From NCBI GenBank assembly GCA_964524645.1, contig CAZGEC010000002.1, positions 5,005 to 69,004 on the forward strand: a stretch of DNA of 64,000 nucleotides, read 5' to 3'. Positions 28,841 to 57,760 of this stretch are shown piece after piece. Position 1 is the stretch's first letter. Every line of letters starts with the position of its first letter. Both the position numbers and the translations under genes were made by a program. The notes under the pieces were generated by a model, which was given only the letters and a program-made list of their open reading frames with translations, had not been told where the DNA came from and made no database searches. This DNA is from an uncultured Fibrobacteraceae bacterium (GTDB lineage Bacteria; Krumholzibacteriota; Krumholzibacteriia; LZORAL124-64-63).

Positions 28841-28848
28841 GGGCCCGT

Positions 28849-28929: not shown

Positions 28930-28945
28930 CGAGACTCTCCCTCTG

Positions 28946-31519: not shown

Positions 31520-31553
31520 CGCGGGTGCCGGCCGGCACGACCACCGGAGCTGC

Positions 31554-32276: not shown

Positions 32277-32278
32277 TC

Positions 32279-37504: not shown

Positions 37505-38470
37505 TCAGGTTCCGCAGAAGAGAGTGCGGCCCAGGCGGATCATCCTGTCCTCGAGGTCCCGGGAGGGAACGTCGTAGCTCCAGAAGAGACGGCTGCGGTC
37601 CGTCTGGCGGCCGGTCCAGTCGGGCGGCATCCGCTCCTCGAGGCCGGCGCCTTCCTGCGTGACGAGGAAGGCGAAATCGGCGTCCGGATGACCCGTCAGA
37701 GCCGCCTCCGCATGGACCAGGGGTACGTCGCCCAGGCTGAAGAGGCTGAGCTGATCGCCGCGGATCGCCGCGAGCCAGCTCCGCGGGGTACTGGCCGCGC
37801 GCGAGCCGGCGCCCGGTTCCTCCTGCCTCGCTCCCAGGATCATCAGCTCCAGCGGTTTGCAGTGCAAATCCTGGACGGAGCCCGGCGCCTCCCCGGTCCG
37901 GCCCGGCCGCCCCTCGAGGTCGACCAGCTCGAGCCGGCCCTCCGGGCACGGCCCGCCGACGGTGAAGGGATGCGTATCCAGGCGGCGAATCCGTACGTCA
38001 GCGAACCCGCGGGCCACGTGGTCGAAGCTTCCGCTCAGCAGGTCGGGCAGAGACGGCTCGCCAGCGGTGCCGGAGCCGTCCAGCCACCGGTTTACGGCGG
38101 CCAGCAGGCGGAACTCGGGCGTCCGCTGGAAATCCTCGGCCTCCTGCAGGTCGGTGGCGACGTCCTCCCGCCCTGCGGGAGTCGACAGCAGCGCCTGGGC
38201 CAGCCAGCGGCAATCGTCGTAGGCGGCGTAGAGCGCGTCGCTGCCCTCCGGCGCCAGCACGTGCGCGTTGAAGACCAGCTGACCGGCCTGATCCACCGCC
38301 TCCTCCACCAGCGCCACGACATACTGGCGGTCGAAGATGTAGTCGCCGCCGGACTTCTCGGCGCCGTCCCGGGCCAGGTCCATGAGCCTGCGCGCATTCT
38401 CGAGCAGCCTGCGGAAGCGGACGATCCACAGGCGCAGGTCCTCGACGGCTTGCTGTCTTTTCGAGAACAT
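37505..38470 (-). CDS. hypothetical protein, first gene downstream of a sigma-54 promoter
   Basis: Begins MFSKRQQAVEDLRLWIVRFRRLLENARRLMDL..., starting 18-25 nt downstream of the sigma-54 motif. No family assigned. Confidence 0.45.
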   Translation of the reverse strand: MFSKRQQAVEDLRLWIVRFRRLLENARRLMDLARDGAEKSGGDYIFDRQYVVALVEEAVDQAGQLVFNAHVLAPEGSDALYAAYDDCRWLAQALLSTPAGREDVATDLQEAEDFQRTPEFRLLAAVNRWLDGSGTAGEPSLPDLLSGSFDHVARGFADVRIRRLDTHPFTVGGPCPEGRLELVDLEGRPGRTGEAPGSVQDLHCKPLELMILGARQEEPGAGSRAASTPRSWLAAIRGDQLSLFSLGDVPLVHAEAALTGHPDADFAFLVTQEGAGLEERMPPDWTGRQTDRSRLFWSYDVPSRDLEDRMIRLGRTLFCGT

Positions 38471-38498
38471 CTCGGCCCCCTGGCGATGTCGCGTTCGT

Positions 38499-38514
38499 TG
38501 CAAGTTTCCCGCCA
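38499..38514 (-). promoter_or_regulatory. sigma-54 promoter TGGCGGG-N4-TTGCA (-24/-12)
   Basis: Minus-strand read gives ...ACTGGCGGGAAACTTGCAACGAACGCGACATCGCCAGGGGGCCGAGATG, with exact GG-N10-GC spacing. It is divergent from the NtrC-family activator gene. Confidence 0.6.
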
Positions 38515-38721
38515 GTCCCCGCCGCCCGCTCCGGAAGGTCGCCGGCCCGCGCAAGCGAGGCCCAATCCACGAGCTGGCCTCCTTCTCCATCCCGGGAGCC
38601 GCCCGCAGCCCGGCGGTCCGCCGGCGCCCGGCGGAGCGGTTCGCTGTTGCATATCGCATCAGTACCTGTAGATTTGTGCGGGAGGGACGGGAAGGCCGCT
38701 GGAACCCGGGAGAACGCCCGC

Positions 38722-40065
38722 ATGAATCGAATTCTGGTCGTCGAGGACGATCGGATCACCCTGAAGAACCTGCGCAATATCCTGCGCAAGGAGGGACACG
38801 AGGTCGAGACGGCCGGCGGCGGCGAGGAGGCCTTCCGGTTGCTGGAGGCGAAGCCCTGCGATCTCGTGCTCACGGATCTCGTGATGGAGCCGGTCGACGG
38901 CCTGGCGGTGCTGACGCGGGCCAGGGAGCGGGATCCGGAGACGCAGGTGATCGTCATGACCGGCCACGCCTCGGTCTCCACCGCCATCGAAGCGATGAAG
39001 CGCGGCGCCTTCCACTACCTGCAGAAGCCCTTCCAGCCGGAAGAGGTCCGGCACCTCGTCGCCCTGGCGCTGGAGAAGCGGCGGCTCAGGACGGAGGTCG
39101 CCGACCTCAAGCAGCAGGTCGAGGCCGGGCCGCAGCGCATCCTGGGTCACAGCCCGAAGATCGTCGCCATCCGGCGCCTGATCCGGCAGGTGGCCGAGAC
39201 GGATTCGAACGTGATGATCACCGGCGGGTCGGGCACGGGCAAGGAGCTGGTGGCCTCGGCCATTCACCGGCTGAGCCGGCGTTCCGCCAGGAAGTTCCTG
39301 CCCATCAACTGCGCCTCCTTCACCGAGGACCTGCTGGCCAACGAGCTGTTCGGCCACGAGAAGGACGCCTTCACGGGAGCCACGACCACCCGGACGGGGC
39401 TGCTGGAGGCGGCGGACGGGGGGACGATCTTCTTCGACGAGGTCGGCGACATGCCCCCAGTCATGCAGGCGAAGCTGCTGCGGGTGGTCCAGGAGCGGGA
39501 GCTGATCCGCGTGGGCGGCTCCCGGCCCATTCGGATCGACGTGCGGATCATCTCGGCCACGAACAAGAACCTGCGGCTCGCCCTGCAGCACGGGAACTTC
39601 CGCGAGGATCTCTACTACCGCCTCAACGTCGTGCCCATCGACATGCCGACCCTGGCCGAGCGCAAGGAAGACATCCCCTTGCTGGTCAAGCACTTCCTGA
39701 ATCGATTCAATCGCCGGGCCCAGGCGCGGATCCTCGGCTTCACCGGCGAGGCGCTCCAGCTGCTGGGCTCGTACGATTATCCCGGCAACGTCCGCGAGCT
39801 GGAGAACATCGTCGAGCGGGCGGCTTCCCTGAGCCGCTCCGAGGTGATCGGCGTGGAGGCCCTGCCCGAGGATCTCCAGGAGCTGGAGGTCTACGCGCTG
39901 CGCCGGGGTCAGTCCCGCATCAAGACGCTGGAGGAGATGGAGCAGGAGTACATCCGGGACGTGCTGGCCCGCTGCAACCACAACAAGAGCCGGGCCGCCG
40001 AGGCGCTCGGCATCAACCGCGTCTCCCTGTACCGCAAGCTGAAGCGGACGCAGATCACCGAGTGA
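38722..40065 (+). CDS. sigma-54-dependent response regulator (REC, AAA+ and HTH domains; NtrC/Fis family)
   Basis: The receiver domain has the phospho-acceptor Asp [14 protein letters not shown]+ motifs are [14 protein letters not shown] and ESELFGHEK-like ([13 protein letters not shown]). The C-terminal HTH is [21 protein letters not shown]. Confidence 0.9.
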
Positions 40066-40395
40066 AGCCCGCTCGCCGGTCCTCCCGCGTTGCAGAATGT
40101 TACGTCGGCGTTGAACCACCGAACTGAAAGAAACCCTTCACTGCCTGGCGATTCCCGCCCCGTGCCCCGTTCCGCCGCGGGATGTGTTACGGATTGCAAC
40201 AATGGGAATCAGCCGCCGCGCGACGGCGAGACGGGACGACGCCTCCAGCCCCGGCCGGTCTCCGAGCATGCAAGCAAGCTCCAGGCAAGTCGTTACATGA
40301 ATCGAGCCCCGGAGATCCGGCGCCGTGCGGCGGCCGACCCGGCCGGGCCCGAGACTTGCCCCTGTCCCCGGCGGATGTCGGCATGGACGTGGATC

Positions 40396-40818
40396 ATGAA
40401 GCAGTACAAGAGGATCCTGGTGTTGCTGGAGGGCCTCGCGGTCAGGCGGGAGGTGATCCAGTACGCCGCGGCCCTGGCCCAGCGGATCAACGCGCGCATC
40501 ACGCTGTTGATGCTGCTGCCCAACGAGGCGGGCAGCGGCAGCGACGGCGTCGATCCTGTCGCGCAGGGGGAGATCATCCTGGAGCAGGAGACGAAGCGCC
40601 TCGCGGGCAGCGGCGTTCCGGTCCAGTACGAGGTGATCAGGGGCGATCCCCGCTCCGAGCTGATCAAGTTCATGGCGATCAATCTCTCGTTCGACACGGC
40701 CGTGTGGGGCGGGGACCCGATCGCCCTGCGCCCCGGTTCGGGCCACCTGGCGGATCACTGGATCTCCACCATCGGGAAGCAGCTCGCCTGTCCCCTGGTC
40801 GCGCCGACCAGGAGATGA
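40396..40818 (+). CDS. universal stress protein (UspA family)
   Basis: Begins MKQYKRILVLLEG...VIQYAAALAQ. The ATP-binding glycine motif region is present. Confidence 0.75.
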   Translation: MKQYKRILVLLEGLAVRREVIQYAAALAQRINARITLLMLLPNEAGSGSDGVDPVAQGEIILEQETKRLAGSGVPVQYEVIRGDPRSELIKFMAINLSFDTAVWGGDPIALRPGSGHLADHWISTIGKQLACPLVAPTRR

Positions 40819-40858
40819 CAGGCGGCGGACAGCGGCACAACGGAGGGACGGAAGGCGC

Positions 40859-42370
40859 ATGCGGAACATTTGCATCTCGCGGGGAAGCTACTCCCAGGGC
40901 AAGGAGCTGGCCGAGGTGCTGGCCCGGAAGCTCGGCTGCGAATGCCTCAGCCGAGAGGACCTCGTGGAGGAGGCGACGAAGGCGGGCATCGCCGTCGGCA
41001 AGCTGGAGACGGCCATGCTCAAGCCCGGCAGCTTCAACGAGCGCCTGCTGCTCGAGAAGGAGCACTATCATGCCTTCGTGACCGCCCGGCTCTGCGAGAG
41101 GATGCTCGGATCGGACCTGGTCTATCACGGCCGCACCGGACACCTGTTGCTGCCCGGCGTCTCCCACGTCCTGCGCATCCGGGTGGTGGAAAGCCTCGAC
41201 GGCCGCATCAACTCGGCGATGGCGAAGCTCAGGATCCCCAGGGAGAAGGCGCGCAGGTACCTGGAGAGTGTCGACGACGACATGCGGCGCTGGGTGCGGA
41301 CCTTCTACGACGTGGACTGGGAGACCGCCGGCCACTACGACCTGGTCGTGAACCTGGAACAGATGAGCACGGGCAACGCATCCGCGGCGCTGTGCTCGGT
41401 GGCCGCGCTGCCCGACTTCGAGACCACGCCCGCCTCCCGCCAGGCCATGGAAAACCTCCTGCTGGCCGCCCAGGTCCGCCTCGAGCTCGCGAGGGAGGAG
41501 CGGACCCGCGACAGCTCGTTCCGCGTGCTGGCGGAGCGCGGCGTGGTCCTGGTCACCTATCAGCCCCGCGACGCCAGGGTGGCCGAGTTCGTGCCCGCTG
41601 TCGTGCACCGCGTGCCCGGCATCAGCGAGCTGCGCTGCACGATGGCCTCCACCAGCATCCTGTGGATCCAGGAGGAGTTCGACGCGGCCGCTGAGTCGTA
41701 CCGCCAGGTCGTCCAGCTGGCCAGGCGCTGGAACGCGGCCGTGGAGCTGCTGCGCTTCGTGCCCGGAGGGACCGAGGAGGTCGGGCCCGCGACCGCGCCG
41801 CCCGGCGCCGCGGCGACGGCCCCCCGGAGCCGGGAGTACAACGGCGGCATCGAGGACGACGTCGAGCATCCGGCCGAGGGCGAGGACGGCGGCCTGCGCC
41901 GCACCCAGGACAGCCTGGCCGGGGACGGCGTGGCGGGTGGAGCCCACGTCGCCTGCTGCCGGCCGGACCGGCTGCTGGACAAGCTCGACAGCCGGGTGAA
42001 GTACACCCTCGTGGTGGTGGGCAACGTGTTCCTGCAGAGCGGCGAGGCGGCGCGGGTCCGCAAGACCCGGGAGCTCACGAGCACGCTGAGCGACATCCTG
42101 AAGGCGCCGGTGGTCGGGGCCGACGAGCTGAAGAAGACCTACATGTTCAGCCCCGGACAGGCCGTGAAGCAGATCCTCTACCTCGCGCTGGTGGCCGCGG
42201 TCTTCGTCCTGGTCTTCACGCATCAGGAGACGGTCGTGAAGCTCCTGCACAGCGAGGGGACGCGCGCGAAGCTGCTGGCGGCCATCGGGGTCGGCGTGCT
42301 CGTACCGTGCTTCGCGTACCTGTACGGCACGGTCACCAAGTTCCTGCTGAAGCTGATCAGGATCGAGTAG
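40859..42370 (+). CDS. cytidylate-kinase-like family (PF13189-type) protein fused to a C-terminal membrane-anchored region
   Basis: N-terminus MRNICISRGSYSQGKELAEVLARKLGCECLSRE... is typical of the Cytidylate_kin2 family. The C-terminus has a hydrophobic helix, ILYLALVAAVFVLVF. Confidence 0.5.
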   Translation: MRNICISRGSYSQGKELAEVLARKLGCECLSREDLVEEATKAGIAVGKLETAMLKPGSFNERLLLEKEHYHAFVTARLCERMLGSDLVYHGRTGHLLLPGVSHVLRIRVVESLDGRINSAMAKLRIPREKARRYLESVDDDMRRWVRTFYDVDWETAGHYDLVVNLEQMSTGNASAALCSVAALPDFETTPASRQAMENLLLAAQVRLELAREERTRDSSFRVLAERGVVLVTYQPRDARVAEFVPAVVHRVPGISELRCTMASTSILWIQEEFDAAAESYRQVVQLARRWNAAVELLRFVPGGTEEVGPATAPPGAAATAPRSREYNGGIEDDVEHPAEGEDGGLRRTQDSLAGDGVAGGAHVACCRPDRLLDKLDSRVKYTLVVVGNVFLQSGEAARVRKTRELTSTLSDILKAPVVGADELKKTYMFSPGQAVKQILYLALVAAVFVLVFTHQETVVKLLHSEGTRAKLLAAIGVGVLVPCFAYLYGTVTKFLLKLIRIE

Positions 42371-42380
42371 GAGGCCAGCG

Positions 42381-43478
42381 ATGATTCCTCACATTCTCTC
42401 GGACATGTTCATCGAGCTGAACCTGAGCACGGCCATCCAGGTCGTCGTCCTCGGGTTCATCGGCGGAATCCTGAGCGGCTTCATCGGGAGCGGAGGCGCC
42501 TTCTTCATGACCCCGGGCATGATGAACCTCGGGGTGCCGGGCGTCGTCGCGGTGGGGAGCAACATCACCCACAAGTTCGGCAAGGCGATGATGGGCTCCC
42601 GGATGCACGGCGAGCTGGGCAACGTGGACCGCAAGCTGGGCATCTTCCTGATCCTGACCTCCTTCGTGGGGATCCGGTTCGCGGTCTGGCTGAACACCAT
42701 GCTCTTCGAGGGCGGCACGGGCGGCCACGGCGAGGGGGGCAGCGCCGCCGCGGACCTCTACATCTCGCTGATCTTCGTCTGCATCCTGTCCCTGGTGGCC
42801 ATCTCCATGCTGCGGGACGCGCTCAGGGCCACCAAGGAGGACAGCGGCCCCTCCCAGCGGATCGCCGAGTATCTCTCCCGCCTCAAGCTGTTTCCGATGA
42901 TCCACTTCCCGGTGGCCGACGTGCGGGTCTCCCTCTGGGTGATCAGCGCGGTGGGCTTGGCCACGGGCTATCTCGCCGGCACGATCGGCGTCGGCGGCTT
43001 CATCGGGGTGCCGGCCATGATCTACGTCTTCGGCGTGCCCACCGCCGTGGCCGCGGGCACCGAGCTTTTCCTGGCCATGTTCATGGGAGCGTTCGGCGCC
43101 CTGAACTACGCCTTCCAGGGCTTCGTGGACCTCCGTCTCACCCTGCTCCTGTACCTGGGCTCCCTGGTCGGCATCTACATCGGGGCGTACGGGACGAAGG
43201 TCGTCAAGGAGATCATCATCCGCATCGTCACGGGAGTGATCATCATCCTCTGCGTCATCAGCCGCGCCATCGCCATACCCATGTACCTGAGGCAGCTCGG
43301 CTACGTGGAGATGAATCCCGAGTGGGACCGGTACTTCAACCAGGCCAGCAAGATCATGCTGTTCGCCGCTGGCATCTCGGGCTGCGCCATCATCCTGTGG
43401 AACGTGTACCGGGGCTACCAGCGGAGGAAGCAGGTGGCCTCGACGCTGAAGATCGCACGGGCCGAAACCGTCGCATGA
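42381..43478 (+). CDS. TauE/SafE (TSUP family) sulfite/anion exporter
   Basis: Two halves share the Gly-rich FIGSGGAFFMTPGM / IGVGGFIGVPAMIY motifs. Confidence 0.8.
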   Translation: MIPHILSDMFIELNLSTAIQVVVLGFIGGILSGFIGSGGAFFMTPGMMNLGVPGVVAVGSNITHKFGKAMMGSRMHGELGNVDRKLGIFLILTSFVGIRFAVWLNTMLFEGGTGGHGEGGSAAADLYISLIFVCILSLVAISMLRDALRATKEDSGPSQRIAEYLSRLKLFPMIHFPVADVRVSLWVISAVGLATGYLAGTIGVGGFIGVPAMIYVFGVPTAVAAGTELFLAMFMGAFGALNYAFQGFVDLRLTLLLYLGSLVGIYIGAYGTKVVKEIIIRIVTGVIIILCVISRAIAIPMYLRQLGYVEMNPEWDRYFNQASKIMLFAAGISGCAIILWNVYRGYQRRKQVASTLKIARAETVA

Positions 43479-43499
43479 CGTGATCAGGAGGCTCCTTCC

Positions 43500-43898
43500 A
43501 TGGACAAGGCGCTGAGAATCATGGTCGTGGACGACGAGTCGATCGTCGGCCGGCGTCTCAAGCCGGCGCTGGAGAAGTCGGGGTACCAGGTCGAGGTGTT
43601 CGAGGACGGCAAGAGCGCCATCGATCGGATCGCCCTGGAACCGTTCGACATCGTCGTCACGGACGTTCGCATGGACGAGATCGACGGCATGCAGGTGCTG
43701 CAGCAGGTCCTCACCAGCTCGCCCCGCACCAAGGTCATCATCATCACCGGCTATGCCACGGTGGAACTCGCGCGCGAGGCGCTGATCAAGGGGGCCTTCG
43801 ACTTCATCGCCAAGCCGTTCAAGCCGGACGATCTGCGCAACGTCATCGAGAAGGCCGCCCGCAAGCTCCGCGAGGAGCAGGAGTCCGGCGAGCGGTGA
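43500..43898 (+). CDS. single-domain response regulator (CheY-like receiver)
   Basis: Begins IMVVDDESIV and contains DIVVTDVRMDEIDG and KVIIITGYA. Confidence 0.85.
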   Translation: MDKALRIMVVDDESIVGRRLKPALEKSGYQVEVFEDGKSAIDRIALEPFDIVVTDVRMDEIDGMQVLQQVLTSSPRTKVIIITGYATVELAREALIKGAFDFIAKPFKPDDLRNVIEKAARKLREEQESGER

Positions 43899-43923
43899 AG
43901 CGGGCCGGGCCCGGGGAGGGCAG

Positions 43924-46410
43924 GTGATGAACACGGAGCGTCCAGCGGCCGCCGCCGGCAAGCTGACGGACCTGAGCTTCCGTCTCCAGTACGAGACCCT
44001 GCGCTCGCTGCTCTTCAAGAACGGCGTCGCCCTGCAGCTGATGGCCGATCTGGAGGCGGATCTGAATCATCTGGACCACTCCGATGCGCACATCCAGCGC
44101 CCGGTGCAGCGGCTGCTGGACGAGACCCTCCTGATGGCCCAGGAGCTGAACATCCTCACCGGCAACCGCCACCGGTCGCTCTACGGCGTGATCGAGAGCA
44201 TCCACGGACAGCTCCGGGCGGTGTTCGCGGCGGAGCCGGAGAGCGGGCGCTGGCCGCTGGCCGTCCCGCTGAGCGCGGACGAGGCCTTCACTTCGCGCAT
44301 CGTGGGGGGCAAGGCCGCCGGCCTGGCGACCCTGCGGCAGCACTTCCCCGACCGCATCCCGGAGGGGTTCGTCATCACCACGGCCGCCTATCGCGCCTTC
44401 ATCGAGGCGAACGGGCTGACCGACCGCATCCGGCTCCTGCTCGGGGATCTCGACGTGATGACGGACCATCCGCGATTCCGGGAACGGACCGGGGCGATCC
44501 GGGAGCTGATCCTCGCCGCCCCCGTGCCGGAGCCCATCCGCGAGGCGATCCAGCGCCAGGCCGACCGCGTAGCCGGCGCCGCGGCGGGGACCTGGGCCGT
44601 CCGCTCGAGCGCCTGGAAGGAGGACGAGGCATTCTCCTTCGCGGGCCAGTTCGACAGCAAGCTGAACGTCCGGACCGCCGACCTCACCGACGCCTACCGG
44701 GCCGTGCTGGCCAGCCGGTTCTCCAACCGCGCTGTCGCCTACCGCCTGCACTGCGGGCTGCGCGAGGTGGACACGCCCATGGCGGTCCTCTTCATGCCCA
44801 TGATCGACGCCCGGGCGGCCGGGGTGATCTACACCGCCGATCCGCAGCACCCGGACTCCGGCTGCATGGTGCTCTGCGCGGTCCGCGGCTTGGCCGACCG
44901 CATGATCCGGGGGGAGGAGGAGGGCGAGATCCAGTACCTCGCCCGGTCCCCGCAAGCGGAGCAGGTGCCGGCCAGGCAGGCGCCGCGGCACGGCGCCGCG
45001 GGCGGAGCCGGGGAGGCGTCCGTCGTCGCCGAGAGCATCGCCGCCGAGATCGGTCGCCTCGCCGACAGTGCGGCCCGGGCGCTCGGGCACGAGATGGATC
45101 TGGAGTGGGTGCTGGATCGGCAGGATCGACTCTGGCTGCTGCAGGGACGCCGGCTGCGCGTGTCCGGGCCGGAGCGCGCCCGAGCCGGCGGGGCCGGACG
45201 GGAACCGCCCCTGCTCGAGAGCGGCTTCACGCTGGCCCCCGGGCGGGCCGAGGGGCCGGTGGAGTGCCTGCGGGCGCAGCAGGCGCCGGAGATCCGGCGC
45301 CAGGCCCCGGTCCTGGTGATCGACCAGGGCACGCCCGCCTTCGCCCCCCTGCTCCCGCGCATCGCGGCGCTGCTGATCGAGCACGGCAATCCGGTGGGAC
45401 ACCTGGCGGCGCTGGTCCGCGAGTTCAGGGTGCCCGCCATCTACGGCCTGGAGGACGGCGCCCGACTGCTCCGGCCCGACGACGTGATCAGCGTGGACGC
45501 CACCCGGCGCCGGATCTACCGGGGCTCCCGCTGGCCGGAGGTCCGGGACCGGGTGCTGGCCCGCGTCGCCTCGCCGTCCTCGCGCACGCCCGCGGGTCCC
45601 CTCCACGAGCTGGTGCTCGCCCTGAACCTCACCGATCCCTATGCCTCCTCCTTCAAGGCCCGCAACTGCCGCTCCATCCACGACGTGATCCGCTTCATCC
45701 ACGAGATGTCGGTGCGCTCGATGTTCCGCCTGGGCGATCGTCAGAACCGCTTCTGGAAGAGCTCCCTCAAGCGGCTCGACTCGCGGCTGCCGATCAAGCT
45801 GCGGCTGGTCGACCTGGACGGCTGCACGCCGGCGGGGAAGTCCCGGCTCGGGCCGGAGGAGGTCGAAAGCCGGCCCTTCCAGGCTCTCTGGCGCGGGGTG
45901 GCGGATCCCCGCGTCGCCTGGGACCGGAAGCAGGTCCACCACCTCGAGAACATGCCGCGCGACTTCGTCGAGCAGGTCCTGGGGGGCTCGCGGGGCCCGC
46001 GACGCTCCGGGGACGCCAACTACGCCATCGTCGCCGCGGACTACCTGAACTTCAACGCCCGCTTCGCCTTCCACTACGCCATGCTCGATGCGATCGTGAG
46101 CCCGAGCAAGGAGAGCAACCACGTGCACTTCCGCTTCCGGGGCGGAGGCGGCGACGAGGCCCAGCGCATCCGCCGGGCCACCTTCCTGGAAACGGTCCTG
46201 CGCCATCACCACTTCGGGGTGGATCGGCGGGGCGATCTCGTGACCGCCTGGCTGCGCAGCTATCCCCGGGCCGACTCGGAGCGCGCCCTGGAGATGCTGG
46301 GACGCCTGATGGCCTGTTCCCGGCAGCTTGACATGTTCCTCGTGAGCGATGATATGATCGAGGCGTTCATCCAGCGGTTCCTGAGCGAGGACTACTCGGC
46401 ATTCCGATGA
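43924..46410 (+). CDS. PEP-utilising enzyme (PEP synthase / pyruvate, water dikinase family) with an extra ~350-aa C-terminal domain
   Basis: PPDK_N/ATP-grasp blocks include GGKAAGLATLRQ. The swivel phospho-His motif is GNPVGHLAALVREFRVPAIYG. A long C-terminal extension follows. Confidence 0.7.
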   Translation: MMNTERPAAAAGKLTDLSFRLQYETLRSLLFKNGVALQLMADLEADLNHLDHSDAHIQRPVQRLLDETLLMAQELNILTGNRHRSLYGVIESIHGQLRAVFAAEPESGRWPLAVPLSADEAFTSRIVGGKAAGLATLRQHFPDRIPEGFVITTAAYRAFIEANGLTDRIRLLLGDLDVMTDHPRFRERTGAIRELILAAPVPEPIREAIQRQADRVAGAAAGTWAVRSSAWKEDEAFSFAGQFDSKLNVRTADLTDAYRAVLASRFSNRAVAYRLHCGLREVDTPMAVLFMPMIDARAAGVIYTADPQHPDSGCMVLCAVRGLADRMIRGEEEGEIQYLARSPQAEQVPARQAPRHGAAGGAGEASVVAESIAAEIGRLADSAARALGHEMDLEWVLDRQDRLWLLQGRRLRVSGPERARAGGAGREPPLLESGFTLAPGRAEGPVECLRAQQAPEIRRQAPVLVIDQGTPAFAPLLPRIAALLIEHGNPVGHLAALVREFRVPAIYGLEDGARLLRPDDVISVDATRRRIYRGSRWPEVRDRVLARVASPSSRTPAGPLHELVLALNLTDPYASSFKARNCRSIHDVIRFIHEMSVRSMFRLGDRQNRFWKSSLKRLDSRLPIKLRLVDLDGCTPAGKSRLGPEEVESRPFQALWRGVADPRVAWDRKQVHHLENMPRDFVEQVLGGSRGPRRSGDANYAIVAADYLNFNARFAFHYAMLDAIVSPSKESNHVHFRFRGGGGDEAQRIRRATFLETVLRHHHFGVDRRGDLVTAWLRSYPRADSERALEMLGRLMACSRQLDMFLVSDDMIEAFIQRFLSEDYSAFR

Positions 46411-48035
46411 AGCGGCCAGACCACCAAGCCCCGGACGGCGGCCAGGACGTCGCGAACGCCCAGGGCGGCGGAAGCACCCTGGACGGGACCTTTCTGCCGG
46501 ATCAGGAAGACGCGCTGAAGTCGGAGCTGGAGCTGGAGAAGGAGCGTCTCACCCACCGGCCGACCCTCCGCATCCGCACTCGCATCACGCTCTCCTTCCT
46601 CTTCGTGTTCGCCTTCTGCGTCGTCATCACGCTCTGGATCATGTACACCCTCTCGCGGATCCAGGAGAAGACCCGTTTTCTCGAGCTGGCGGACAGCTAC
46701 ATGAGTGAGATCCAGCAGGCCCGCCGCTTCGAGAAGAACTTCCTCCTGTACGGCACGAATCTCGAGGATGCCCAGGAGCACCTGCACAACGCTCAGGATC
46801 TGCTGAACGTCAACCGCAACATGGTGCGCAAGATCCTCGGTCCCCGGAACCTCGGCACCCTGTCGCAGCACGTGTCCGATTACGACCGGCTGCTGACGAA
46901 GCTGGGGGAGGCGCCAGAGGGTCCCCGGCGGGAGGCGATGGAGGCGGAGCTGCGCCTGCACGGTTCGGAGATGATCTCCTTCGCCATGGACTTCTCGGGT
47001 CAGGAACGGAGGGCCGTCGATCACACCTTCATGCTGGCCCGCCGGGTCCCGTTCGTCTTCCTGGGCGTCCTGCTGCTGACCATGCTGATCATCGCGCGGT
47101 TCTTGACCCGGCAGTTCCTCGGCACGCTGTCCCGCTTCATGGAGTACACCCGCCGCATCGGCGAGGGCAACTTCTCGCCCATCACGCCGGTGCGCAAGTA
47201 CAGCGACGAGTTCAGCCAGCTGGCCCTGGCCTTCAACCAGATGATCTACGAGCTGGATCATCGCCAGCGGATCCTCGTGGAATCGCACAAGGTGCGGGCG
47301 ATCGGCACGCTGGTGGCGGGCGTGGCCCACGAGCTGAACAATCCCTTGAACAACATCATGCTGACCGCGGCCCTGCTGCTGGAGGATCACAAGAACCTGA
47401 GCGAGGAGGAGCTGCGCGAGATGATCGGAGACGTGATCGGCGAGACCGAGCGCTCCCAGAAGATCGTGCGCAACCTGCTCGACTTCGCCCGCGAGAGCGA
47501 GATCAAGGTCAAGCCGCTGCACCTGGGCGAGATCGTGGAGAACGCCGTCCGCCTGGTGGGCAATCAGGTCAAGATGCACAAGATCCGGCTCGAGGTGGAG
47601 ATCGGCAAGGACCTGCCGACGATCCACGGCGACAGCCAGATGCTCTGCCAGGTCTTCGTGAACCTGATCCTGAACGCCGTCGACGTGCTGCCGGAAAGGG
47701 GCCGCATCCAGGTGCGCGCGTTCCGGAGCGACGAGAAAGGCTACCTGGCGGTGGAGATCGCGGACAACGGGCCGGGCATCCCGGAGCACATCCTGCCGCG
47801 GATCTTCGAGCCCTTCTTCACGACGAAGACCAAGGGGAAGGGCACGGGCCTCGGTCTGTCCGTGTCCCGGGGCATCATCGGCAAGCTCGGCGGTTACATT
47901 CGCGTCAGGAGCAAGGTCGGCGAGGGCACCGTCTTCACCGTTCTGCTGCCGACGACCAACATCCCCTTCGAGGCGACCGGACCCGCCCGGGACGAGACGG
48001 CTCCCCTCGTCTCCTCGCCGCCGTCGGCGCCGTGA
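46407..48035 (+). CDS. sensor histidine kinase (TM-HAMP-HisKA-HATPase)
   Basis: The H-box is HELNNPLNNI. N, G1 and G2 boxes are NLILNAVD, DNGPGI and GTGLGLS. ATGA overlaps the stop of the previous gene. Confidence 0.85.
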   Translation: MKRPDHQAPDGGQDVANAQGGGSTLDGTFLPDQEDALKSELELEKERLTHRPTLRIRTRITLSFLFVFAFCVVITLWIMYTLSRIQEKTRFLELADSYMSEIQQARRFEKNFLLYGTNLEDAQEHLHNAQDLLNVNRNMVRKILGPRNLGTLSQHVSDYDRLLTKLGEAPEGPRREAMEAELRLHGSEMISFAMDFSGQERRAVDHTFMLARRVPFVFLGVLLLTMLIIARFLTRQFLGTLSRFMEYTRRIGEGNFSPITPVRKYSDEFSQLALAFNQMIYELDHRQRILVESHKVRAIGTLVAGVAHELNNPLNNIMLTAALLLEDHKNLSEEELREMIGDVIGETERSQKIVRNLLDFARESEIKVKPLHLGEIVENAVRLVGNQVKMHKIRLEVEIGKDLPTIHGDSQMLCQVFVNLILNAVDVLPERGRIQVRAFRSDEKGYLAVEIADNGPGIPEHILPRIFEPFFTTKTKGKGTGLGLSVSRGIIGKLGGYIRVRSKVGEGTVFTVLLPTTNIPFEATGPARDETAPLVSSPPSAP

Positions 48036-48108
48036 CCCCGGGCGCCGGAGTGTGCTATCCTGGCGCCCGTTCCCCAGGCAGATCCCTCAACACTGCGGCC
48101 GGGCGCCC

Positions 48109-51100
48109 ATGAAGCTCCACGAGCACACCGTCGGCTACGAGACGCCGCTGTTGCCGGCGCTGGCCCGCTGGCTCCTGGAGAACTCGCCCCGCGCGGCCGC
48201 GGGCGATCTGACCGGCACGCTCGTCCTGCTGCCGGCCCGGCGTCCCTGCGAGGGCCTGAAGCACGTCCTGCTGGAGGAGAGCGGTCGCGACGCTCTTCTA
48301 CTGCCGGAGATCACGACCCCGGCCTGGCTGGCCGACGCGGTGGCGGCCCGGCTGGGGCTGCTGGACGCTCCCGTGCCGCCGGAACACCTGCGAGCCCCGC
48401 TGCTGGCGACCCTGCTGGCGCAGCGGGCGGCCCCGCTGTCCTGGCTGGTGTCGACGCCCGAGAGCGCGCCGGGTCTGGCGCGCGAGCTGGTGTCCACCTT
48501 CGACGAGATCCGCCTGTACGGCCTGGTTCCGGACCTGCTGGAGGAGAGCGGCCCGGCCTCCCTCACGCCGGCCGGCAACGGGCCCGCGCTGGAGATCGAC
48601 CAGCGCGACGTGGCGCGCCTGCGCGCCGCCTGGCAGCTGTACCGCGAGCTGATCCCCCGCGATGCTGTCGACCGGCTCCTGGAGGTGCTCGCAGCGCTGC
48701 GGGAACGGAGGAACTGGCCGGCGCCGCCCTGCGAGCGCCTGGCCGCGGCCGGTTTCGTGGCGCTGGATCCGGCCACCGCCGAGCTGATCCGCCGGCTGGC
48801 GGGCGGGCGTGACCTGCACCTCTTCCAGCCGTCCACTCCCGGACCGCTCTGCCGCCTGTTCCTGGCCTCCTACGGGGCGGACCCGGGCCCGCAGCATCCG
48901 CTGGCCCCCGCCAGCGAAGTGGCCGCGCTCCTGGCCGGCGAAGCGGCTTCCGACTCACCGGCCGCCGGCACTGGACCGCCCGATCTCACACCCTACCGCG
49001 AGCAGCTGGAGCGGCTGCGCCCCAAGCTGCGTCGCTGGCCGGACGCTCACACGCTCGACCTGCTGGCCTGCGGCGATCCGGAGGACGAGAGCCGGACCGT
49101 GGCGGCGCTGGTGGCCGCCGAGCTCGCGGCCTGGCAGGCGCGTGGCGATCCGCATCCCCCGCGCATCGGCGTCGCGACGGCCGACACCGTGCTGGCCCGC
49201 CGCATCGCCGCCCAGCTGCGGGACGCGGGCCTGGACTTCGACGACACCGGCGGCATCCCCTTGGCCGAGCTGCCGGCCGGCCGTCTCGCCCGGCAGCTCC
49301 TGCAGGCTGCCCTGACCGGCCTGCGCCATGGGCCCCTGCTGGAGCTGCTGACCCATCCCTTCGTGCGGCTGCGCGAGGACGCGGCCGCCCATCGCAAGTG
49401 GACCCTCCACTTCGAGAAGATGCTCCGCGGCGAGCAGCAGCGGATGGGGCTGCCGAGCTACCTGGAACGGGCGATCGCCTGGGACGAGGCGGTCGCGGAC
49501 CTCTATCGCCAGCGCGACGGCCGGATGCAGGACTTCGTGACGGCCCTGGGCGAGGCCCTGGCGCCGCTGCTGCACAGGGCCGGCGGGGGGGAGGCGGCCT
49601 GGACGGAGCACCTGACCGCGCTGGTCGAGAGCTGGGAGCGCATGGCGCCGGACCGGCCGCTCGGCGGTGCCGAGCTGCCGCCGGATCAGACGGCTCTGGG
49701 CCGCCTGCTGGACGATCTGGGACGCGTTGCCCGCGGCGAGGGGCTGGCCGGAACGCCCCCCCGCCTCGGGTTCGCGGACTTCGCGAACCTCCTGGACCGC
49801 CTGTTGAGCGAGGGACCGCGGTCGCACGTCCGCCCCAACCGGCGCGAGTTCCTGCCGGTGCAGCTGACCGGTCTGCTCGAGGCGCGGCTGGAGGAGTACG
49901 ACCTGCTGATCCTGGCCGGCACAGGGGAGGAGGTCTTTCCCGGCCGCCTGCGCCGGCCGCTGCTGCTCGGCGAGGGGTTCCGCATGGTCATGGACCTACC
50001 CCGCTGGCCGCAGGAGCTGGGGCGGCAGGCCGATCTCTTCCTGCGCCTGCTGCATGCGGGCCGCAGCGTGGTCGTCACCTGGCCCGCCGAGCGGCTGGGT
50101 CAGCCCTGCCTGCCCTCGTCCTTTGTCCTGCGGCTGGCCCTCAGCGGGCTGGTCCCGTGCCAGCGCACGCTGCCCGCTCCCCTGTTTCGCAACGCGAGGG
50201 ATCTGGCCCCCGCCGCCCGGATCGCCGCCGCGCAGGAGCGGTTTCGCAGCGAGCCGGCGGAGATTCCCCTGAGCGCCGCCGGGCGGCCGCTCCGGCGGCT
50301 GAGCCACACGGCCCTGCGGACCTACCTGGACTGCCCCTACCGCTTCCTGCTGGAGCGGGGCTTCGGCCTGCGCGAGGAGGAGGAGGTCCTCGAGGAGTTC
50401 CGCCGCCTCGACTACGGCAGCCGGGTGCACGAGTGCCTGCGGCGTCTCCTCGCCCCCCGGAGTCCCGCCCACGCGGCCCTGGAACGCGGCGAGCGGGAGC
50501 CGGCCCTGACCGAGCTGCAGCGACTGGCGGCCGAGGTCTTCGCGGCGGATGCCGAGGCGCTGCCCCAGAGCCGGCTCTGGGCGGCGACCTTCCGTTCCTG
50601 CGCCCCCGGTCTGGTTGATTACGAGCTGCAGCGCTTCGCCGCCGGCTGGCGACCCTGGTGCCTGGAGCAGTCCTTCGACCTGCCGCTGCGCAAGCTGCGC
50701 GACTGGCTGCTGCGGCAGCCGGCCGCCGCGGAATCCGCTGACGCGCCCGCCGCACCGCCGGAGCTGCCCGCCGACGTGGCGGATCTGCGGCTGGTCGGCA
50801 CCATCGACCGCATCGACCGCCGCGGCGAGGGGGCGGACGCGGCCTGGTCGATTCTGGACTACAAGACCGGGCAAACGCCCACCCTCGCCAGCGTGCGGGA
50901 CGGCCGCGAGCTGCAGATCGTGCTCTACGCCCTGATCGCCGAGGCGGGCGGTCTGTCGGGCGTGCGCGAAGCGCCGCGGCCGGTGGTCGAGGGGGCCTAC
51001 TATCGCGTCCATCCCACGCAGATCGGTTTCGATCCGGAACGTCCGGCGCTGCCTGGCAGCACGCCGGAAGGGCGCCGCATCCTGCAGGAGGGCGCCCGCA

Positions 51101-51303
51101 CCATCCTGGCGGCCGCCGCGGCGGCCCAGGATCGCACGCATCCCTATCCCCTGGTGCCGGCTTTCTGGACCGCCGGGACGGGCGGCCCCCTGCCCTGCCG
51201 GACCTGTGCTTTTGCGGCGGTCTGCCGGCTCGAGGAGCGCGCGCTGCCGGCTCACCTGGACATCAAGCTGCGCGGGGAGCTGAACGCTTCGCGCTCGTCC
51301 TGA
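48109..51303 (+). CDS. addB: AddB-like helicase-nuclease subunit (inactive helicase-like N-region, PD-(D/E)XK nuclease, C-terminal Cys cluster)
   Basis: The nuclease motif is GTIDRIDR...ILDYKTG. Cysteines are at CPYRF and at C-terminal ...CRTCAFAAVCRLEE, suggesting a 4-Cys Fe-S staple. There is no Walker A. The start is at ATG 48109. Confidence 0.65.
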   Translation: MKLHEHTVGYETPLLPALARWLLENSPRAAAGDLTGTLVLLPARRPCEGLKHVLLEESGRDALLLPEITTPAWLADAVAARLGLLDAPVPPEHLRAPLLATLLAQRAAPLSWLVSTPESAPGLARELVSTFDEIRLYGLVPDLLEESGPASLTPAGNGPALEIDQRDVARLRAAWQLYRELIPRDAVDRLLEVLAALRERRNWPAPPCERLAAAGFVALDPATAELIRRLAGGRDLHLFQPSTPGPLCRLFLASYGADPGPQHPLAPASEVAALLAGEAASDSPAAGTGPPDLTPYREQLERLRPKLRRWPDAHTLDLLACGDPEDESRTVAALVAAELAAWQARGDPHPPRIGVATADTVLARRIAAQLRDAGLDFDDTGGIPLAELPAGRLARQLLQAALTGLRHGPLLELLTHPFVRLREDAAAHRKWTLHFEKMLRGEQQRMGLPSYLERAIAWDEAVADLYRQRDGRMQDFVTALGEALAPLLHRAGGGEAAWTEHLTALVESWERMAPDRPLGGAELPPDQTALGRLLDDLGRVARGEGLAGTPPRLGFADFANLLDRLLSEGPRSHVRPNRREFLPVQLTGLLEARLEEYDLLILAGTGEEVFPGRLRRPLLLGEGFRMVMDLPRWPQELGRQADLFLRLLHAGRSVVVTWPAERLGQPCLPSSFVLRLALSGLVPCQRTLPAPLFRNARDLAPAARIAAAQERFRSEPAEIPLSAAGRPLRRLSHTALRTYLDCPYRFLLERGFGLREEEEVLEEFRRLDYGSRVHECLRRLLAPRSPAHAALERGEREPALTELQRLAAEVFAADAEALPQSRLWAATFRSCAPGLVDYELQRFAAGWRPWCLEQSFDLPLRKLRDWLLRQPAAAESADAPAAPPELPADVADLRLVGTIDRIDRRGEGADAAWSILDYKTGQTPTLASVRDGRELQIVLYALIAEAGGLSGVREAPRPVVEGAYYRVHPTQIGFDPERPALPGSTPEGRRILQEGARTILAAAAAAQDRTHPYPLVPAFWTAGTGGPLPCRTCAFAAVCRLEERALPAHLDIKLRGELNASRSS

Positions 51304-51398
51304 CGCTCGGGAGGTGTCATGTCCATGGACCAGCTGCAGGTCGAGAGGACCGCCGGCATGGAGCCGGGTTCCTCAGCCGCCGAGGAGTTCGACTGATC

Positions 51399-56779: not shown

Positions 56780-56944
56780 TGCCCTCCTTGTGGTTGTGCC
56801 CCACGATTCTAACGGCCGCGTGGTGCCGATACAAGCTGCTCGCGGTGCCGCTCACGGACCACCGTGGCGCCGGCGGTTCAGGTGTGCGATCCTTGGTGGG
56901 GGAATCCGGCGGTGCGCAAGGCGCCGGATCGCCGGGAGGAGCCC

Positions 56945-57685: not shown

Positions 57686-57760
57686 GCCGCCGCGGGAATC
57701 GTTGCCCGGGCGGCGGCCGGGCCGCGATCGAGAACACGATCCGAACCGGAGGCAGGGCGC

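What the first reader, a model, noticed from the sequence alone, without database searches (positions are those of the whole stretch)
40396..48035. Signalling island combining a PEP-utilising phosphotransfer enzyme with two-component and stress modules
Seven co-directional genes, some with 4-bp overlaps or short gaps: USP, cytidylate-kinase-like fusion, TauE exporter, stand-alone receiver, an 828-aa PEP-synthase-family enzyme and a HAMP histidine kinase, all following the sigma-54 activator. The PEP-family enzyme has ATP-grasp and swivel phospho-His (GNPVGHLAALVREFRVPAIYG) domains but an unrelated ~350-aa C-terminal domain, rather than a PEP/pyruvate-binding TIM barrel. It resembles antibiotic or metabolite phosphotransferases built on this scaffold. 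Embedding such an enzyme between a receiver and a kinase suggests a phosphorelay or a small-molecule phosphorylation system under two-component control.
Basis: inference. Interest (0 to 1): 0.5.

Follow-up and report, generated by a model that had tools for sequence, protein, structure and literature searches.

The report
PEP-synthase-like enzyme in permease signalling operon
An 828-residue relative of PEP synthase has kept its ATP-binding and phospho-histidine domains but replaced the pyruvate-binding barrel with an undescribed domain, and in many anaerobic bacteria it is encoded in an operon with an anion permease, a kinase-like protein and a two-component/sigma-54 regulatory system.

Summary
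Seven co-directional genes lie at 38722-48035: sigma-54 activator, USP, Cytidylate_kin2 fusion, TauE permease, receiver, an 828-aa PEP-synthase-like protein ("PPSL") and a HAMP histidine kinase.

PPSL has an intact ATP-grasp and a swivel domain with a conserved His493. Its last ~285 residues are not a PEP/pyruvate TIM barrel:
- no Pfam hit even at E<=10;
- no match to the E. coli PpsA barrel;

The domain defines a large unnamed family: 1,481 clusters at 50% identity, always at the C-terminus of ~830-920-aa proteins.

The neighbourhood is conserved across Desulfobacterota, Myxococcota, Acidobacteriota and Zixibacteria. Of 49 well-flanked loci, 44 have a permease, 41 CK2, 43 a receiver and 42 a kinase. 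Sigma-54 promoters precede the USP gene.

The cluster extends left of the given coordinates. A divergent gene (37505-38470) encodes a catalytically stripped copy of PPSL's N- and C-domains.

The gene set resembles the Desulfovibrio "nitrate cluster", whose mutants resist nitrate. I therefore favour a receiver-gated phosphotransferase that controls an oxyanion permease. The acceptor is unknown. I rate it a new variant of a known enzyme scaffold, of moderate interest.

The parts
37505..38470 (-). 'NC paralog': a stand-alone protein made of the PPSL N-terminal domain plus a degenerate PPSL C-terminal domain, with no ATP-grasp or swivel domain. The ORF runs to 38659; the likely start is the ATG at 38470.
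   Evidence: No Pfam hit. phmmer E 8e-39 to the 325-aa ORF found between permease and receiver in related loci. hhalign probability is 96.5% to the PPSL N-domain profile and 96.7% to the C-domain profile over 213 columns. At H586, R590 and H593 the window's copy has Pro, Ser and Phe, and the N709/R713/H717 block is not recognisable in the alignment. Homologues are present in 35 of 49 well-flanked loci.
38500..38514 (-). Candidate sigma-54 promoter TGGCGGGAAACTTGC, 29 nt upstream of the ATG at 38470.
   Evidence: Matches 8 of 10 consensus positions with GG and GC in register. The two closest relatives, L029 and L009, carry TGGCAAAGGAATTGC and TGGCAGAATATTTGC at the same place.
38722..40065 (+). 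NtrC-type sigma-54 enhancer-binding response regulator (REC - AAA+ - HTH_8), with DAFTGA in place of GAFTGA.
   Evidence: Pfam Response_reg 8e-30, Sigma54_activat 9e-67, HTH_8 1e-15. Orthologues are present in 28 of 49 well-flanked loci.
40345..40359 (+). Candidate sigma-54 promoter GGGCCCGAGACTTGC, 36 nt upstream of the USP start codon.
   Evidence: Matches 8 of 10 positions and is not significant on its own. About 20 of the 27 related loci that have a USP gene carry a 9-10/10 site (TGGCA-N6-TTTTGC) near the start of that gene.
40396..40818 (+). Universal stress protein, first gene of the operon.
   Evidence: Pfam Usp 7e-8. The same position is kept in Desulfobacterales, Myxococcota, Acidobacteriota and Desulfovibrionaceae loci.
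40859..42370 (+). Cytidylate_kin2 P-loop-like domain (aa 1-175), a family-specific middle domain, and a C-terminal hydrophobic stretch read as a membrane anchor (503 aa, 'CK2').
   Evidence: Pfam PF13189 5e-29. The N-terminal motif ISRGSxSxGK is conserved in homologues. CK2 genes occur in 41 of 49 well-flanked loci.
42381..43478 (+). TauE/SafE (TSUP family) anion permease.
   Evidence: Pfam TauE 8e-37. A TauE or a CitMHS/DASS-TrkA_C permease is present in 44 of 49 well-flanked loci.
43500..43898 (+). Stand-alone receiver domain; the sequence TDVRMDEIDG holds the expected acceptor Asp.
   Evidence: Pfam Response_reg 2.5e-30. A receiver lies directly upstream of PPSL in 34 of 49 well-flanked loci. 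Receivers are found fused to a PPSL paralog (L006) and to the NC paralog (L033).
43924..44298 (+). PPSL N-terminal helical domain (aa 1-125), specific to this family.
   Evidence: No Pfam hit. It is conserved in the family alignment and shared with the NC paralog.
44299..45174 (+). PPSL ATP-grasp nucleotide-binding domain (aa 126-417).
   Evidence: Pfam PPDK_N 3e-53. The positions G.K, RSS..ED, S.AG, D.EW and Q.R are conserved in at least 90% of 97 family members. The family profile aligns to E. coli PpsA residues 4-457 with E 5e-120.
45310..45507 (+). PPSL swivel (mobile) phospho-histidine domain, with His493 at 45400-45402.
   Evidence: Pfam PEP-utilizers 2e-11. The His is conserved in at least 90% of 97 family members and in all three Desulfovibrionaceae paralogs.
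45556..46410 (+). PPSL C-terminal domain (aa ~545-828): an undescribed alpha+beta domain that replaces the PEP/pyruvate TIM barrel.
46407..48035 (+). Sensor histidine kinase: two hydrophobic segments flanking a ~130-aa sensor region, then HAMP, HisKA and HATPase_c.
   Evidence: Pfam HAMP 1e-7, HisKA 3e-15, HATPase_c 1e-28. It overlaps PPSL by 4 bp. A kinase lies directly downstream of PPSL in 25 of 49 well-flanked loci and somewhere in the locus in 42 of 49.

Best explanation
The locus is a conserved module that controls an oxyanion permease and is itself under sigma-54 and two-component control.

Shown:
- The kinase, the sigma-54 activator and a stand-alone receiver are encoded together with a TauE-family permease, a Cytidylate_kin2 protein with a hydrophobic C-terminus, a USP and PPSL.
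- In relatives the operon (USP to kinase) and the divergent NC-paralog gene carry sigma-54 promoters.
- PPSL keeps the conserved motifs of the first half-reaction of PEP synthase: an ATP-grasp and the swivel His493.
- The pyruvate-binding barrel is replaced by a new domain with a nearly invariant His/Asp/Arg/Asn constellation.

Inferred:
- The kinase senses an extracytoplasmic signal and phosphorylates both receivers.
- The activator switches on the two sigma-54 promoters.
- The phosphorylated stand-alone receiver, probably together with the NC paralog, gates PPSL.
- PPSL autophosphorylates His493 from ATP and passes the phosphoryl group to an acceptor held by the C-terminal domain.
- This step is needed for the permease to work. 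PPSL would therefore be a regulatory or energising output of the signalling pathway, not a gluconeogenic enzyme.
- The transported substrate is probably a sulfur oxyanion such as thiosulfate, sulfite or sulfate.
For: Domain anatomy and intact catalytic motifs.

The C-terminal domain is new and carries about 14 nearly invariant residues, mostly polar, across a family of 1,481 clusters at 50% identity.

Neighbourhood in 49 well-flanked loci from several phyla:
- permease in 44
- CK2 in 41
- receiver in 43
- kinase in 42
- NC paralog in 35

Desulfovibrionaceae keep the order USP-TauE-Alph_Pro_TM-PPSL-REC-PPSL-PPSL beside a divergent HAMP kinase; the sigma-54 activator next to that kinase is visible in L083. 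A receiver is found fused to a PPSL paralog (L006) and to the NC paralog (L033). Sigma-54 promoters precede the USP gene in about 20 of 27 relatives, and precede the NC gene in the two closest relatives.

Literature:
- Korte et al. 2014 (PMC4001038) describe a Desulfovibrio cluster of a TauE permease, a HAMP kinase, a receiver-only regulator and an ATP-grasp/mobile-domain protein for which no PEP/pyruvate barrel annotation is listed (DVU0246).
- Transposon mutants in the permease, the receiver and DVU0246 each became nitrate-resistant.
- G20 mutants in the cluster were mildly sick on thiosulfate.
- If the cluster is transcribed permease-first, as the gene numbering suggests, a polar effect on the permease cannot explain the DVU0246 phenotype. 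The enzyme then appears to be needed for the permease-dependent phenotype.
- In Dissulfuribacter a 'PEP synthase' adjacent to TauE/Alph_Pro_TM rises 3.4 log2-fold during thiosulfate disproportionation (PMC13490349).
- One related locus (L002) sits beside sat/aprBA.
Against: - No acceptor has been identified and nothing here shows phosphotransfer.
- Whether DVU0246 and the Dissulfuribacter protein belong to the C-domain family could not be tested, because their sequences could not be retrieved.
- The transcription direction of the Desulfovibrio cluster was not stated in the text I read.
- The window's own sigma-54 sites match only 8 of 10 positions, and such matches are no more frequent in the window than chance.
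- A strongly conserved polar pocket suits a small ligand at least as well as a protein target.
- The window contains no sulfur-metabolism genes.
- The Desulfovibrionaceae clusters lack CK2, so CK2 is not universal.
Confidence: 0.4

Rival explanations
1. PPSL is a metabolite kinase. It phosphorylates a small anionic molecule brought in by the neighbouring permease (His493~P to ligand in the C-terminal pocket). CK2 acts on the product or on a nucleotide co-substrate. The two-component system only controls expression and activity.
For: About 14 nearly invariant residues, mostly polar (His, Asp, Arg, Asn, Glu), are kept at ~30% overall identity across the family, as expected for a small fixed ligand. 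By my recollection of the literature, other PpsA-scaffold enzymes (rifampicin phosphotransferase, phenylphosphate synthase, glucan water dikinase) phosphorylate non-pyruvate substrates. A permease and a P-loop kinase-like gene are the most widely kept neighbours. Some paralogous modules (CK2-TauE-PPSL-PPSL) have no receiver or kinase within the operon.
Confidence: 0.27
2. PPSL is an unorthodox phosphodonor in a phosphorelay. His493~P, charged from ATP by the ATP-grasp rather than by a HATPase_c domain, is passed to the Asp of the adjacent receiver, and the C-terminal domain docks the receiver.
For: A receiver lies directly upstream in 34 of 49 well-flanked loci, and somewhere in 43 of 49. A PPSL-receiver fusion with the receiver at the C-terminus resembles a hybrid kinase (L006); P0341, a 435-aa C-domain hit whose only recorded Pfam domain is Response_reg, may be a second example. 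His-to-Asp transfer is ordinary two-component chemistry.
Against: A conventional kinase is already present in 42 of 49 loci. Some PPSL paralog modules have no receiver in the operon. The NC paralog, which lacks the catalytic domains, is also found fused to a receiver (L033), which suggests the receiver binds the N/C domains as a regulator. An invariant His/Asp/Arg/Asn cluster is more than a docking surface needs.
Confidence: 0.15
3. It is an ordinary or slightly divergent PEP synthase (ppsA) or pyruvate phosphate dikinase that happens to sit among regulatory genes.
For: Public annotations call family members 'pyruvate, water dikinase' or 'PEP/pyruvate-binding domain-containing protein'. The first 530 residues are clearly homologous to PpsA.
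Confidence: 0.02

Closest known systems
PEP synthase / pyruvate, water dikinase (PpsA) and pyruvate phosphate dikinase
   Same: It has an N-terminal ATP-grasp (PPDK_N) followed by a swivelling phospho-His domain, in the same order. The conserved nucleotide-binding motifs and the catalytic His are kept. The family profile aligns to E. coli PpsA residues 4-457 at E 5e-120.
   Different: The C-terminal PEP/pyruvate TIM barrel is absent and replaced by an unrelated ~285-aa alpha+beta domain. There is an extra ~125-aa N-terminal domain. The sequence before the His is GNPVGH; by my recollection PpsA and PPDK carry a regulatory Thr there, which is absent here. The genomic context is signalling and transport, not gluconeogenesis.
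Desulfovibrio 'nitrate cluster' DVU0251-DVU0245 / Dde_0597-0605 (Korte et al. 2014, PMC4001038)
   Same: The cluster combines a TauE permease, a HAMP histidine kinase, a receiver-only regulator and an ATP-grasp + PEP-utilizer mobile-domain protein for which no barrel annotation is listed. It is the only genetic phenotype available for such a gene set: mutants resist nitrate and are mildly sick on thiosulfate.
   Different: That cluster also has a PtxB-like periplasmic binding protein and a dual-specificity phosphatase, and no sigma-54 activator, USP or Cytidylate_kin2 gene is listed. DVU0246 is 744 aa. Whether it carries the C-terminal domain described here could not be tested.
Rifampicin phosphotransferase and prodigiosin ligases PigC/RedH
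   Same: They share the ATP-grasp plus swivel-His scaffold, reused for a non-pyruvate acceptor.
   Different: By my recollection of the published structures, those enzymes place the acceptor-binding domain in the middle and the His domain at the C-terminus. NCBIfam scores are 134 against a cut-off of 999 (rifamycin phosphotransferase) and 123 against 1300 (PigC). No such chain appears among the listed fold-search hits for the C-domain.
Enzyme I-Ntr (PtsP) and other regulatory uses of PEP-utilising enzymes
   Same: The concept is shared: a swivel-His phosphotransfer enzyme with an added N-terminal sensory domain, used for regulation rather than bulk metabolism (from my own knowledge).
   Different: As I recall, PtsP uses PEP through a TIM barrel and has no ATP-grasp. 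Here the donor is predicted to be ATP and the barrel is missing. No HPr-like or EIIA-like partner is encoded in the cluster.
NtrC-type two-component systems with sigma-54 promoters
   Same: HAMP kinase plus a REC-AAA+-HTH_8 activator, with GG-N10-GC promoters in front of the controlled operons.
   Different: There is an additional stand-alone receiver paired with a non-transcriptional enzyme output. The activator has DAFTGA instead of GAFTGA.

Membership tests
PEP synthase (PpsA, pyruvate, water dikinase) | ATP-grasp nucleotide-binding domain (PPDK_N) | tested here: met
   Pfam PF01326, E 3e-53, residues 126-417. Motifs are conserved in the family.
PEP synthase (PpsA, pyruvate, water dikinase) | Swivelling domain with a catalytic histidine | tested here: met
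   Pfam PF00391, E 2e-11, residues 463-528. His493 is conserved in at least 90% of 97 homologues.
PEP synthase (PpsA, pyruvate, water dikinase) | C-terminal PEP/pyruvate-binding TIM barrel (PEP-utilizers_C) | tested here: not met
PEP synthase (PpsA, pyruvate, water dikinase) | Score above the NCBIfam equivalog cut-off | tested here: not met
   NF005057 scores 190.9 against 598; TIGR01418 scores 176.7 against 739.75.
Rifampicin phosphotransferase / PigC-type enzymes | Domain order ATP-grasp, then acceptor domain, then C-terminal swivel His domain; score above the family cut-off | tested here: not met
   The swivel domain is central (463-528 of 828) and the novel domain is C-terminal; the domain order of the reference enzymes is from my recollection. 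NF041857 scores 133.8 against 999, and PigC 123.4 against 1300.
PPSL family as defined here (PpsA-like with the new C-terminal domain) | C-terminal ~285-aa domain with the CRSxHDxxRFxHE, YLNxNxRxxYH and FRFxGGG motifs, following ATP-grasp and swivel domains | tested here: met
   The window protein is the seed. A profile search finds 1,481 cluster representatives at E<=1e-3 and 740 at E<=1e-30, and in every listed hit of about 800 aa or more the domain lies in the C-terminal part of the protein.
Desulfovibrio 'nitrate cluster' type system | Clustered TauE permease + HAMP kinase + receiver-only regulator + ATP-grasp/mobile-domain protein without a barrel | tested here: met
   Window gene content compared with Table 3 of PMC4001038.
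Desulfovibrio 'nitrate cluster' type system | Orthology of the dikinase-like protein (DVU0246/Dde_0604) with PPSL, i.e. the same C-terminal domain | not testable with these tools
   The sequences were not retrievable. Two profile searches listed only the best 120 hits and did not show them. Other Desulfovibrionaceae do carry bona fide family members.
Desulfovibrio 'nitrate cluster' type system | PtxB-like periplasmic binding protein and dual-specificity phosphatase in the cluster | tested here: not met
   None of the window genes between 37505 and 48035 has such a domain.
Desulfovibrio 'nitrate cluster' type system | Loss-of-function gives nitrate resistance or a thiosulfate growth defect | not testable with these tools
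   Needs genetics.
NtrC-type sigma-54 two-component regulon | REC - sigma-54 AAA+ - HTH activator together with a sensor kinase | tested here: met
   The GAFTGA loop reads DAFTGA.
NtrC-type sigma-54 two-component regulon | GG-N10-GC (-24/-12) promoter in front of the controlled operon | tested here: inconclusive
   The window sites match 8 of 10 positions, at 40345-40359 (+) and 38514-38500 (-), and are no more frequent than chance window-wide. Relatives have 9-10/10 sites at the homologous positions.

The most novel reading that the evidence does not exclude
PPSL is a new kind of signalling output. It would be a receiver-gated, ATP-driven swivel-His phosphotransferase that phosphorylates a membrane permease or its partner proteins (CK2 or Alph_Pro_TM). 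This would resemble the sugar phosphotransferase system in using a swivel-His enzyme, but would not depend on PEP. It would switch or energise oxyanion uptake by TSUP/DASS carriers in sulfur-cycling anaerobes, and would explain the Desulfovibrio nitrate-resistance cluster.
Probability: 0.2. Interest if true: 0.8.

Novelty: new variant of a known kind. Interest (0 to 1): 0.55.

Why it matters
- The family is large (1,481 clusters at 50% identity) and spread over several anaerobic phyla, including cultured sulfate reducers. It is annotated everywhere as 'pyruvate, water dikinase' or 'PEP/pyruvate-binding', and for its C-terminal half that is wrong. Metabolic reconstructions that count these genes as PEP synthase are misled.
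- The C-terminal domain has no Pfam model and no solved structural relative.
- Its fixed partnership with TauE/DASS permeases, kinase-like proteins and receivers gives a concrete hypothesis for the poorly annotated Desulfovibrio nitrate cluster, which matters for nitrate-based control of oil-field souring, and for how sulfur-cycling anaerobes regulate oxyanion transport.
- The stripped N+C paralog and the conserved residue set give direct handles for mutagenesis.

Tried and rejected
- **Degenerate TIM barrel.** The motif 'DYLNLNARLAYHYAMVDA' looked like the 'SIGTNDLTQYTLAVDR' motif I recalled from enzyme I. This was rejected by the structure model, by the lack of any Pfam hit at E<=10, and by the direct profile test against E. 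coli PpsA.
- **AlphaFold-database search.** The afdb50 Foldseek library was not available.
- **Retrieving DVU0246/Dde_0604.** Two profile searches did not list them.
- **Literature.** Searches for a described function of the family, or of Cytidylate_kin2 + TauE + PpsA-like clusters, found only Korte 2014 and a 2026 Dissulfuribacter proteomics table.
Full report
**Observation**

The window is about 70% G+C. Seven co-directional genes with GC3 of 0.84-0.95 lie at 38722-48035:
- a REC-AAA+-HTH_8 sigma-54 activator (38722-40065);
- a USP (40396-40818);
- a 503-aa protein with an N-terminal Cytidylate_kin2 domain and a hydrophobic C-terminus ("CK2", 40859-42370);
- a TauE/TSUP permease (42381-43478);
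- a stand-alone receiver (43500-43898);
- an 828-aa PEP-synthase-like protein ("PPSL", 43924-46410);
- a HAMP-HisKA-HATPase_c kinase (46407-48035) that overlaps PPSL by 4 bp.

Gaps between the operon genes are 10-40 nt. Pfam confirms each domain. In PPSL it finds PPDK_N at residues 126-417 and PEP-utilizers at 463-528, and nothing before 126 or after 528.

**The enzyme**

The family profile aligns to E. coli PpsA residues 4-457 with E 5e-120, and homology stops there. In an alignment of 97 full-length homologues, most only 29-33% identical to the window protein, several positions are conserved in at least 90% of sequences. These are the ATP-grasp motif positions (G.K, RSS..ED, S.AG, D.EW, Q.R) and the swivel His493. 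The first half-reaction of PEP synthase, ATP to His~P, is thus very probably retained.

The C-terminal domain is a different matter:
- It has no Pfam hit even at E<=10.
- It has no PDB sequence hit at E<=10.
- It has no match to the PpsA barrel with HMMER filters off, and hhalign probability is 0.08%.
- It has no similarity to the protein's own other domains.

A first model built from 31 sequences was only half confident (pLDDT 75). A second model from 144 diverse homologues reached pLDDT 89 and pTM 0.79. It shows a long helix, two short strands and several helices, and then an antiparallel sheet packed against helices. It is not a (beta/alpha)8 barrel.

NCBIfam scores for PpsA, rifamycin phosphotransferase and PigC/RedH are all far below their cut-offs.

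The domain carries a striking set of nearly invariant residues, mostly polar: C582, H586, D587, R590, H593, E594, N709, R713, H717, D722, N732, G740-G741 and D803.

**The family**

A filter-free profile search of 1.84 billion cluster representatives found 1,481 proteins at E<=1e-3 and 740 at E<=1e-30. In every listed hit of about 800 aa or more the domain lies in the C-terminal part of the protein; nearly all of these are 800-950 aa. Members are named 'pyruvate, water dikinase' or 'PEP/pyruvate-binding domain-containing protein'. They include cultured sulfate reducers: Desulfomarina profundi, Desulfonatronum, Nitratidesulfovibrio vulgaris Miyazaki F, Halodesulfovibrio aestuarii and Desulfovibrio subterraneus.

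**Neighbourhood**

A scan of one genome per species returned 98 loci, of which 80 were kept. They come from Desulfobacterales, Myxococcota, Acidobacteriota, Zixibacteria, Latescibacterota and others, and none exceeds 59% identity to the window's C-domain.

I searched their ORFs with the window's proteins. Among the 49 loci with at least 5 kb upstream and 1.8 kb downstream:

| Neighbour | Loci (of 49) |
|---|---|
| TauE or CitMHS/DASS-TrkA_C permease | 44 |
| Cytidylate_kin2 gene | 41 |
| Receiver anywhere | 43 |
| Receiver directly upstream of PPSL | 34 |
| Histidine kinase | 42 |
| Sigma-54 activator | 28 |
| USP | 22 |

The window's exact order recurs in Myxococcota, Desulfobacterales and Acidobacteriota. 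Many Desulfobacteraceae replace TauE by a 603-aa CitMHS/TrkA_C carrier and have two short CK2 genes.

Desulfovibrionaceae have USP-TauE-Alph_Pro_TM-PPSL-REC-PPSL-PPSL next to a divergent HAMP kinase. In L083 a sigma-54 activator lies beyond that kinase, and all three PPSL paralogs there carry the C-domain.

Paralogous modules of the form CK2-TauE-(Alph_Pro_TM)-PPSL-PPSL also occur, and one lies beside sat/aprBA. Receiver fusions exist with a PPSL paralog (L006) and with the NC paralog (L033).

**Regulation**

A GG-N10-GC site matching 9-10 of 10 consensus positions (TGGCA-N6-TTTTGC) sits near the start of the USP gene in about 20 of the 27 related loci that have a USP gene. The window has GGGCCCGAGACTTGC (8 of 10) 36 nt before the USP start codon. 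On its own this is not significant, because such matches are no more frequent in the window than chance. It is, however, at the homologous position.

**Outside the given coordinates**

A 325-aa ORF with no Pfam domain lies between permease and receiver in many relatives. Its homologue in the window is the divergent gene 37505-38659, with a probable start at 38470 (phmmer E 8e-39).

Profile-profile comparison shows that this gene is the PPSL N-terminal domain (probability 96.5%) joined to the PPSL C-terminal domain (probability 96.7%, 213 columns). It has no ATP-grasp or swivel domain. At H586, R590 and H593 the window's copy has Pro, Ser and Phe, and the N709/R713/H717 block is not recognisable. 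It is present in 35 of 49 loci.

It has its own sigma-54-like site, TGGCGGGAAACTTGC, 29 nt upstream. The two closest relatives have 9-of-10 versions at the same place.

The functional unit is therefore 37505-48035. The N- and C-domains behave as a module that also exists as a catalytically stripped partner.

**Literature**

Korte et al. 2014 (PMC4001038) describe a 'nitrate cluster' in D. vulgaris Hildenborough and D. alaskensis G20. It comprises:
- a TauE permease;
- a hypothetical protein;
- a PtxB-like binding protein;
- a HAMP/PAS kinase;
- a receiver-only regulator;
- a 744-aa protein annotated with ATP-grasp, PPDK_N and PEP-utilizer mobile domains but no barrel (DVU0246);
- a phosphatase.

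Transposon mutants in the permease, the receiver and the dikinase-like gene grew unaffected in 100 mM nitrate but were not resistant to nitrite. G20 mutants in the cluster were mildly sick on thiosulfate. The authors proposed a leaky thiosulfate transporter.

In Dissulfuribacter thermophilus, a 'PEP synthase' adjacent to Alph_Pro_TM and TauE genes rose 3.4 log2-fold during thiosulfate disproportionation. A USP and a SAC1-like carrier in the same neighbourhood fell (PMC13490349).

I could not retrieve these proteins to confirm that they carry the C-domain. The link therefore rests on gene content and listed domain annotation only.

**Mechanism**

Shown:
- a PpsA-type ATP-grasp and swivel His joined to a new domain;
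- obligatory genomic partnership with an anion permease, usually with a P-loop-like protein, and with a receiver and kinase;
- sigma-54 promoters in relatives.

Inferred:
- The kinase phosphorylates both the activator, which gives transcription of the two units, and the stand-alone receiver.
- The receiver, probably with the NC paralog, gates PPSL.
- PPSL charges His493 from ATP and delivers the phosphoryl group to an acceptor in the C-domain.

The argument for a regulatory role runs as follows. If DVU0246 is a member and the cluster is transcribed permease-first, its nitrate-resistance phenotype cannot be a polar effect on the permease. Nitrate is not metabolised by these bacteria. The enzyme then looks necessary for permease function rather than for downstream metabolism.

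I therefore favour a regulatory or energising role towards the permease (confidence 0.4) over the two alternatives:
- a small-molecule kinase acting on the imported anion (0.27), which the invariant polar pocket would suit;
- a His-to-Asp phosphorelay to the receiver (0.15), suggested by the hybrid-kinase-like fusion.

An ordinary PpsA is excluded for the C-terminal half (0.02).

**Verdict**

It is a widespread, misannotated PpsA-scaffold family with an undescribed acceptor domain, embedded in a conserved permease and two-component module. It is a new variant of a known kind of enzyme. Its function is not established, but it is now testable. Interest: 0.55.

Noticed in passing
window 37505-38659 (-), probable start 38470: A divergent gene encodes a stand-alone copy of the PPSL N- and C-terminal domains, without the ATP-grasp or swivel domain. 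The window's copy has lost several of the C-domain's invariant residues. It has its own sigma-54-like promoter at 38514-38500. It belongs to the cluster but lies outside the coordinates given.
   Followed up: yes
window 28848-28936 (+), and genes 29015-33664: A TPP riboswitch (Rfam RF00059, 71 bits) lies upstream of a TonB-dependent receptor. This is followed by a thiamin pyrophosphokinase domain protein and a sodium:solute symporter, which looks like a thiamine uptake and salvage operon.
   Followed up: partly
window 38722-40065 (+): The sigma-54 activator has DAFTGA (HEKDAFTGA) where the sigma-54-contacting loop normally reads GAFTGA.
   Followed up: no
window 48052-55082 (+): AddB-like (PD-(D/E)XK, 1083 aa) and AddA-like (UvrD helicase plus nuclease, 1227 aa) genes start only 16 nt after the kinase stop codon, with no room for a terminator. 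They are not found next to the cluster in relatives.
   Followed up: partly
L083 7434-9998; L084 5903-9004; L085 6128-9004; L086 6410-9004: Desulfovibrionaceae clusters hold three tandem PPSL paralogs. For the middle one only a PEP-utilizers Pfam hit is on record, with no PPDK_N hit, although in L083 it keeps the catalytic His and the RSS..E motif in the alignment. This may indicate a hetero-oligomer with a degenerate subunit.
   Followed up: partly
L002 4259-16440: In one long metagenomic contig, two TauE/Alph_Pro_TM pairs and two convergent PPSL genes (each called as two pieces) lie directly beside ATP sulfurylase and APS reductase genes.
   Followed up: no
P0345 (1799 aa); P0158, P0172, P0179 (1048-1072 aa): One family member is twice the normal length, apparently two PPSL units fused in tandem (or two adjacent genes merged in the gene call). 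Others carry about 200 extra residues after the C-domain, with no Pfam hit.
   Followed up: no
window 20362-24120 (-), 24427-26505 (-), 55088-56779 (-): Large secreted proteins, a C25 gingipain-like protease, a subtilase and one protein with no other recognised domain, end in FlgD_ig domains, and one also has a Por_Secre_tail domain. This suggests a type IX secretion-type sorting signal in this high-GC genome, which also encodes pyruvate formate-lyase. PFL and its activase are at 56864-60136.
   Followed up: no
window 40090-40300: The sequence TGTTACG occurs twice (about 40098 and 40186) and CGTTACA once (about 40292), between the activator gene and the USP promoter. These may be activator binding sites.
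   Followed up: no
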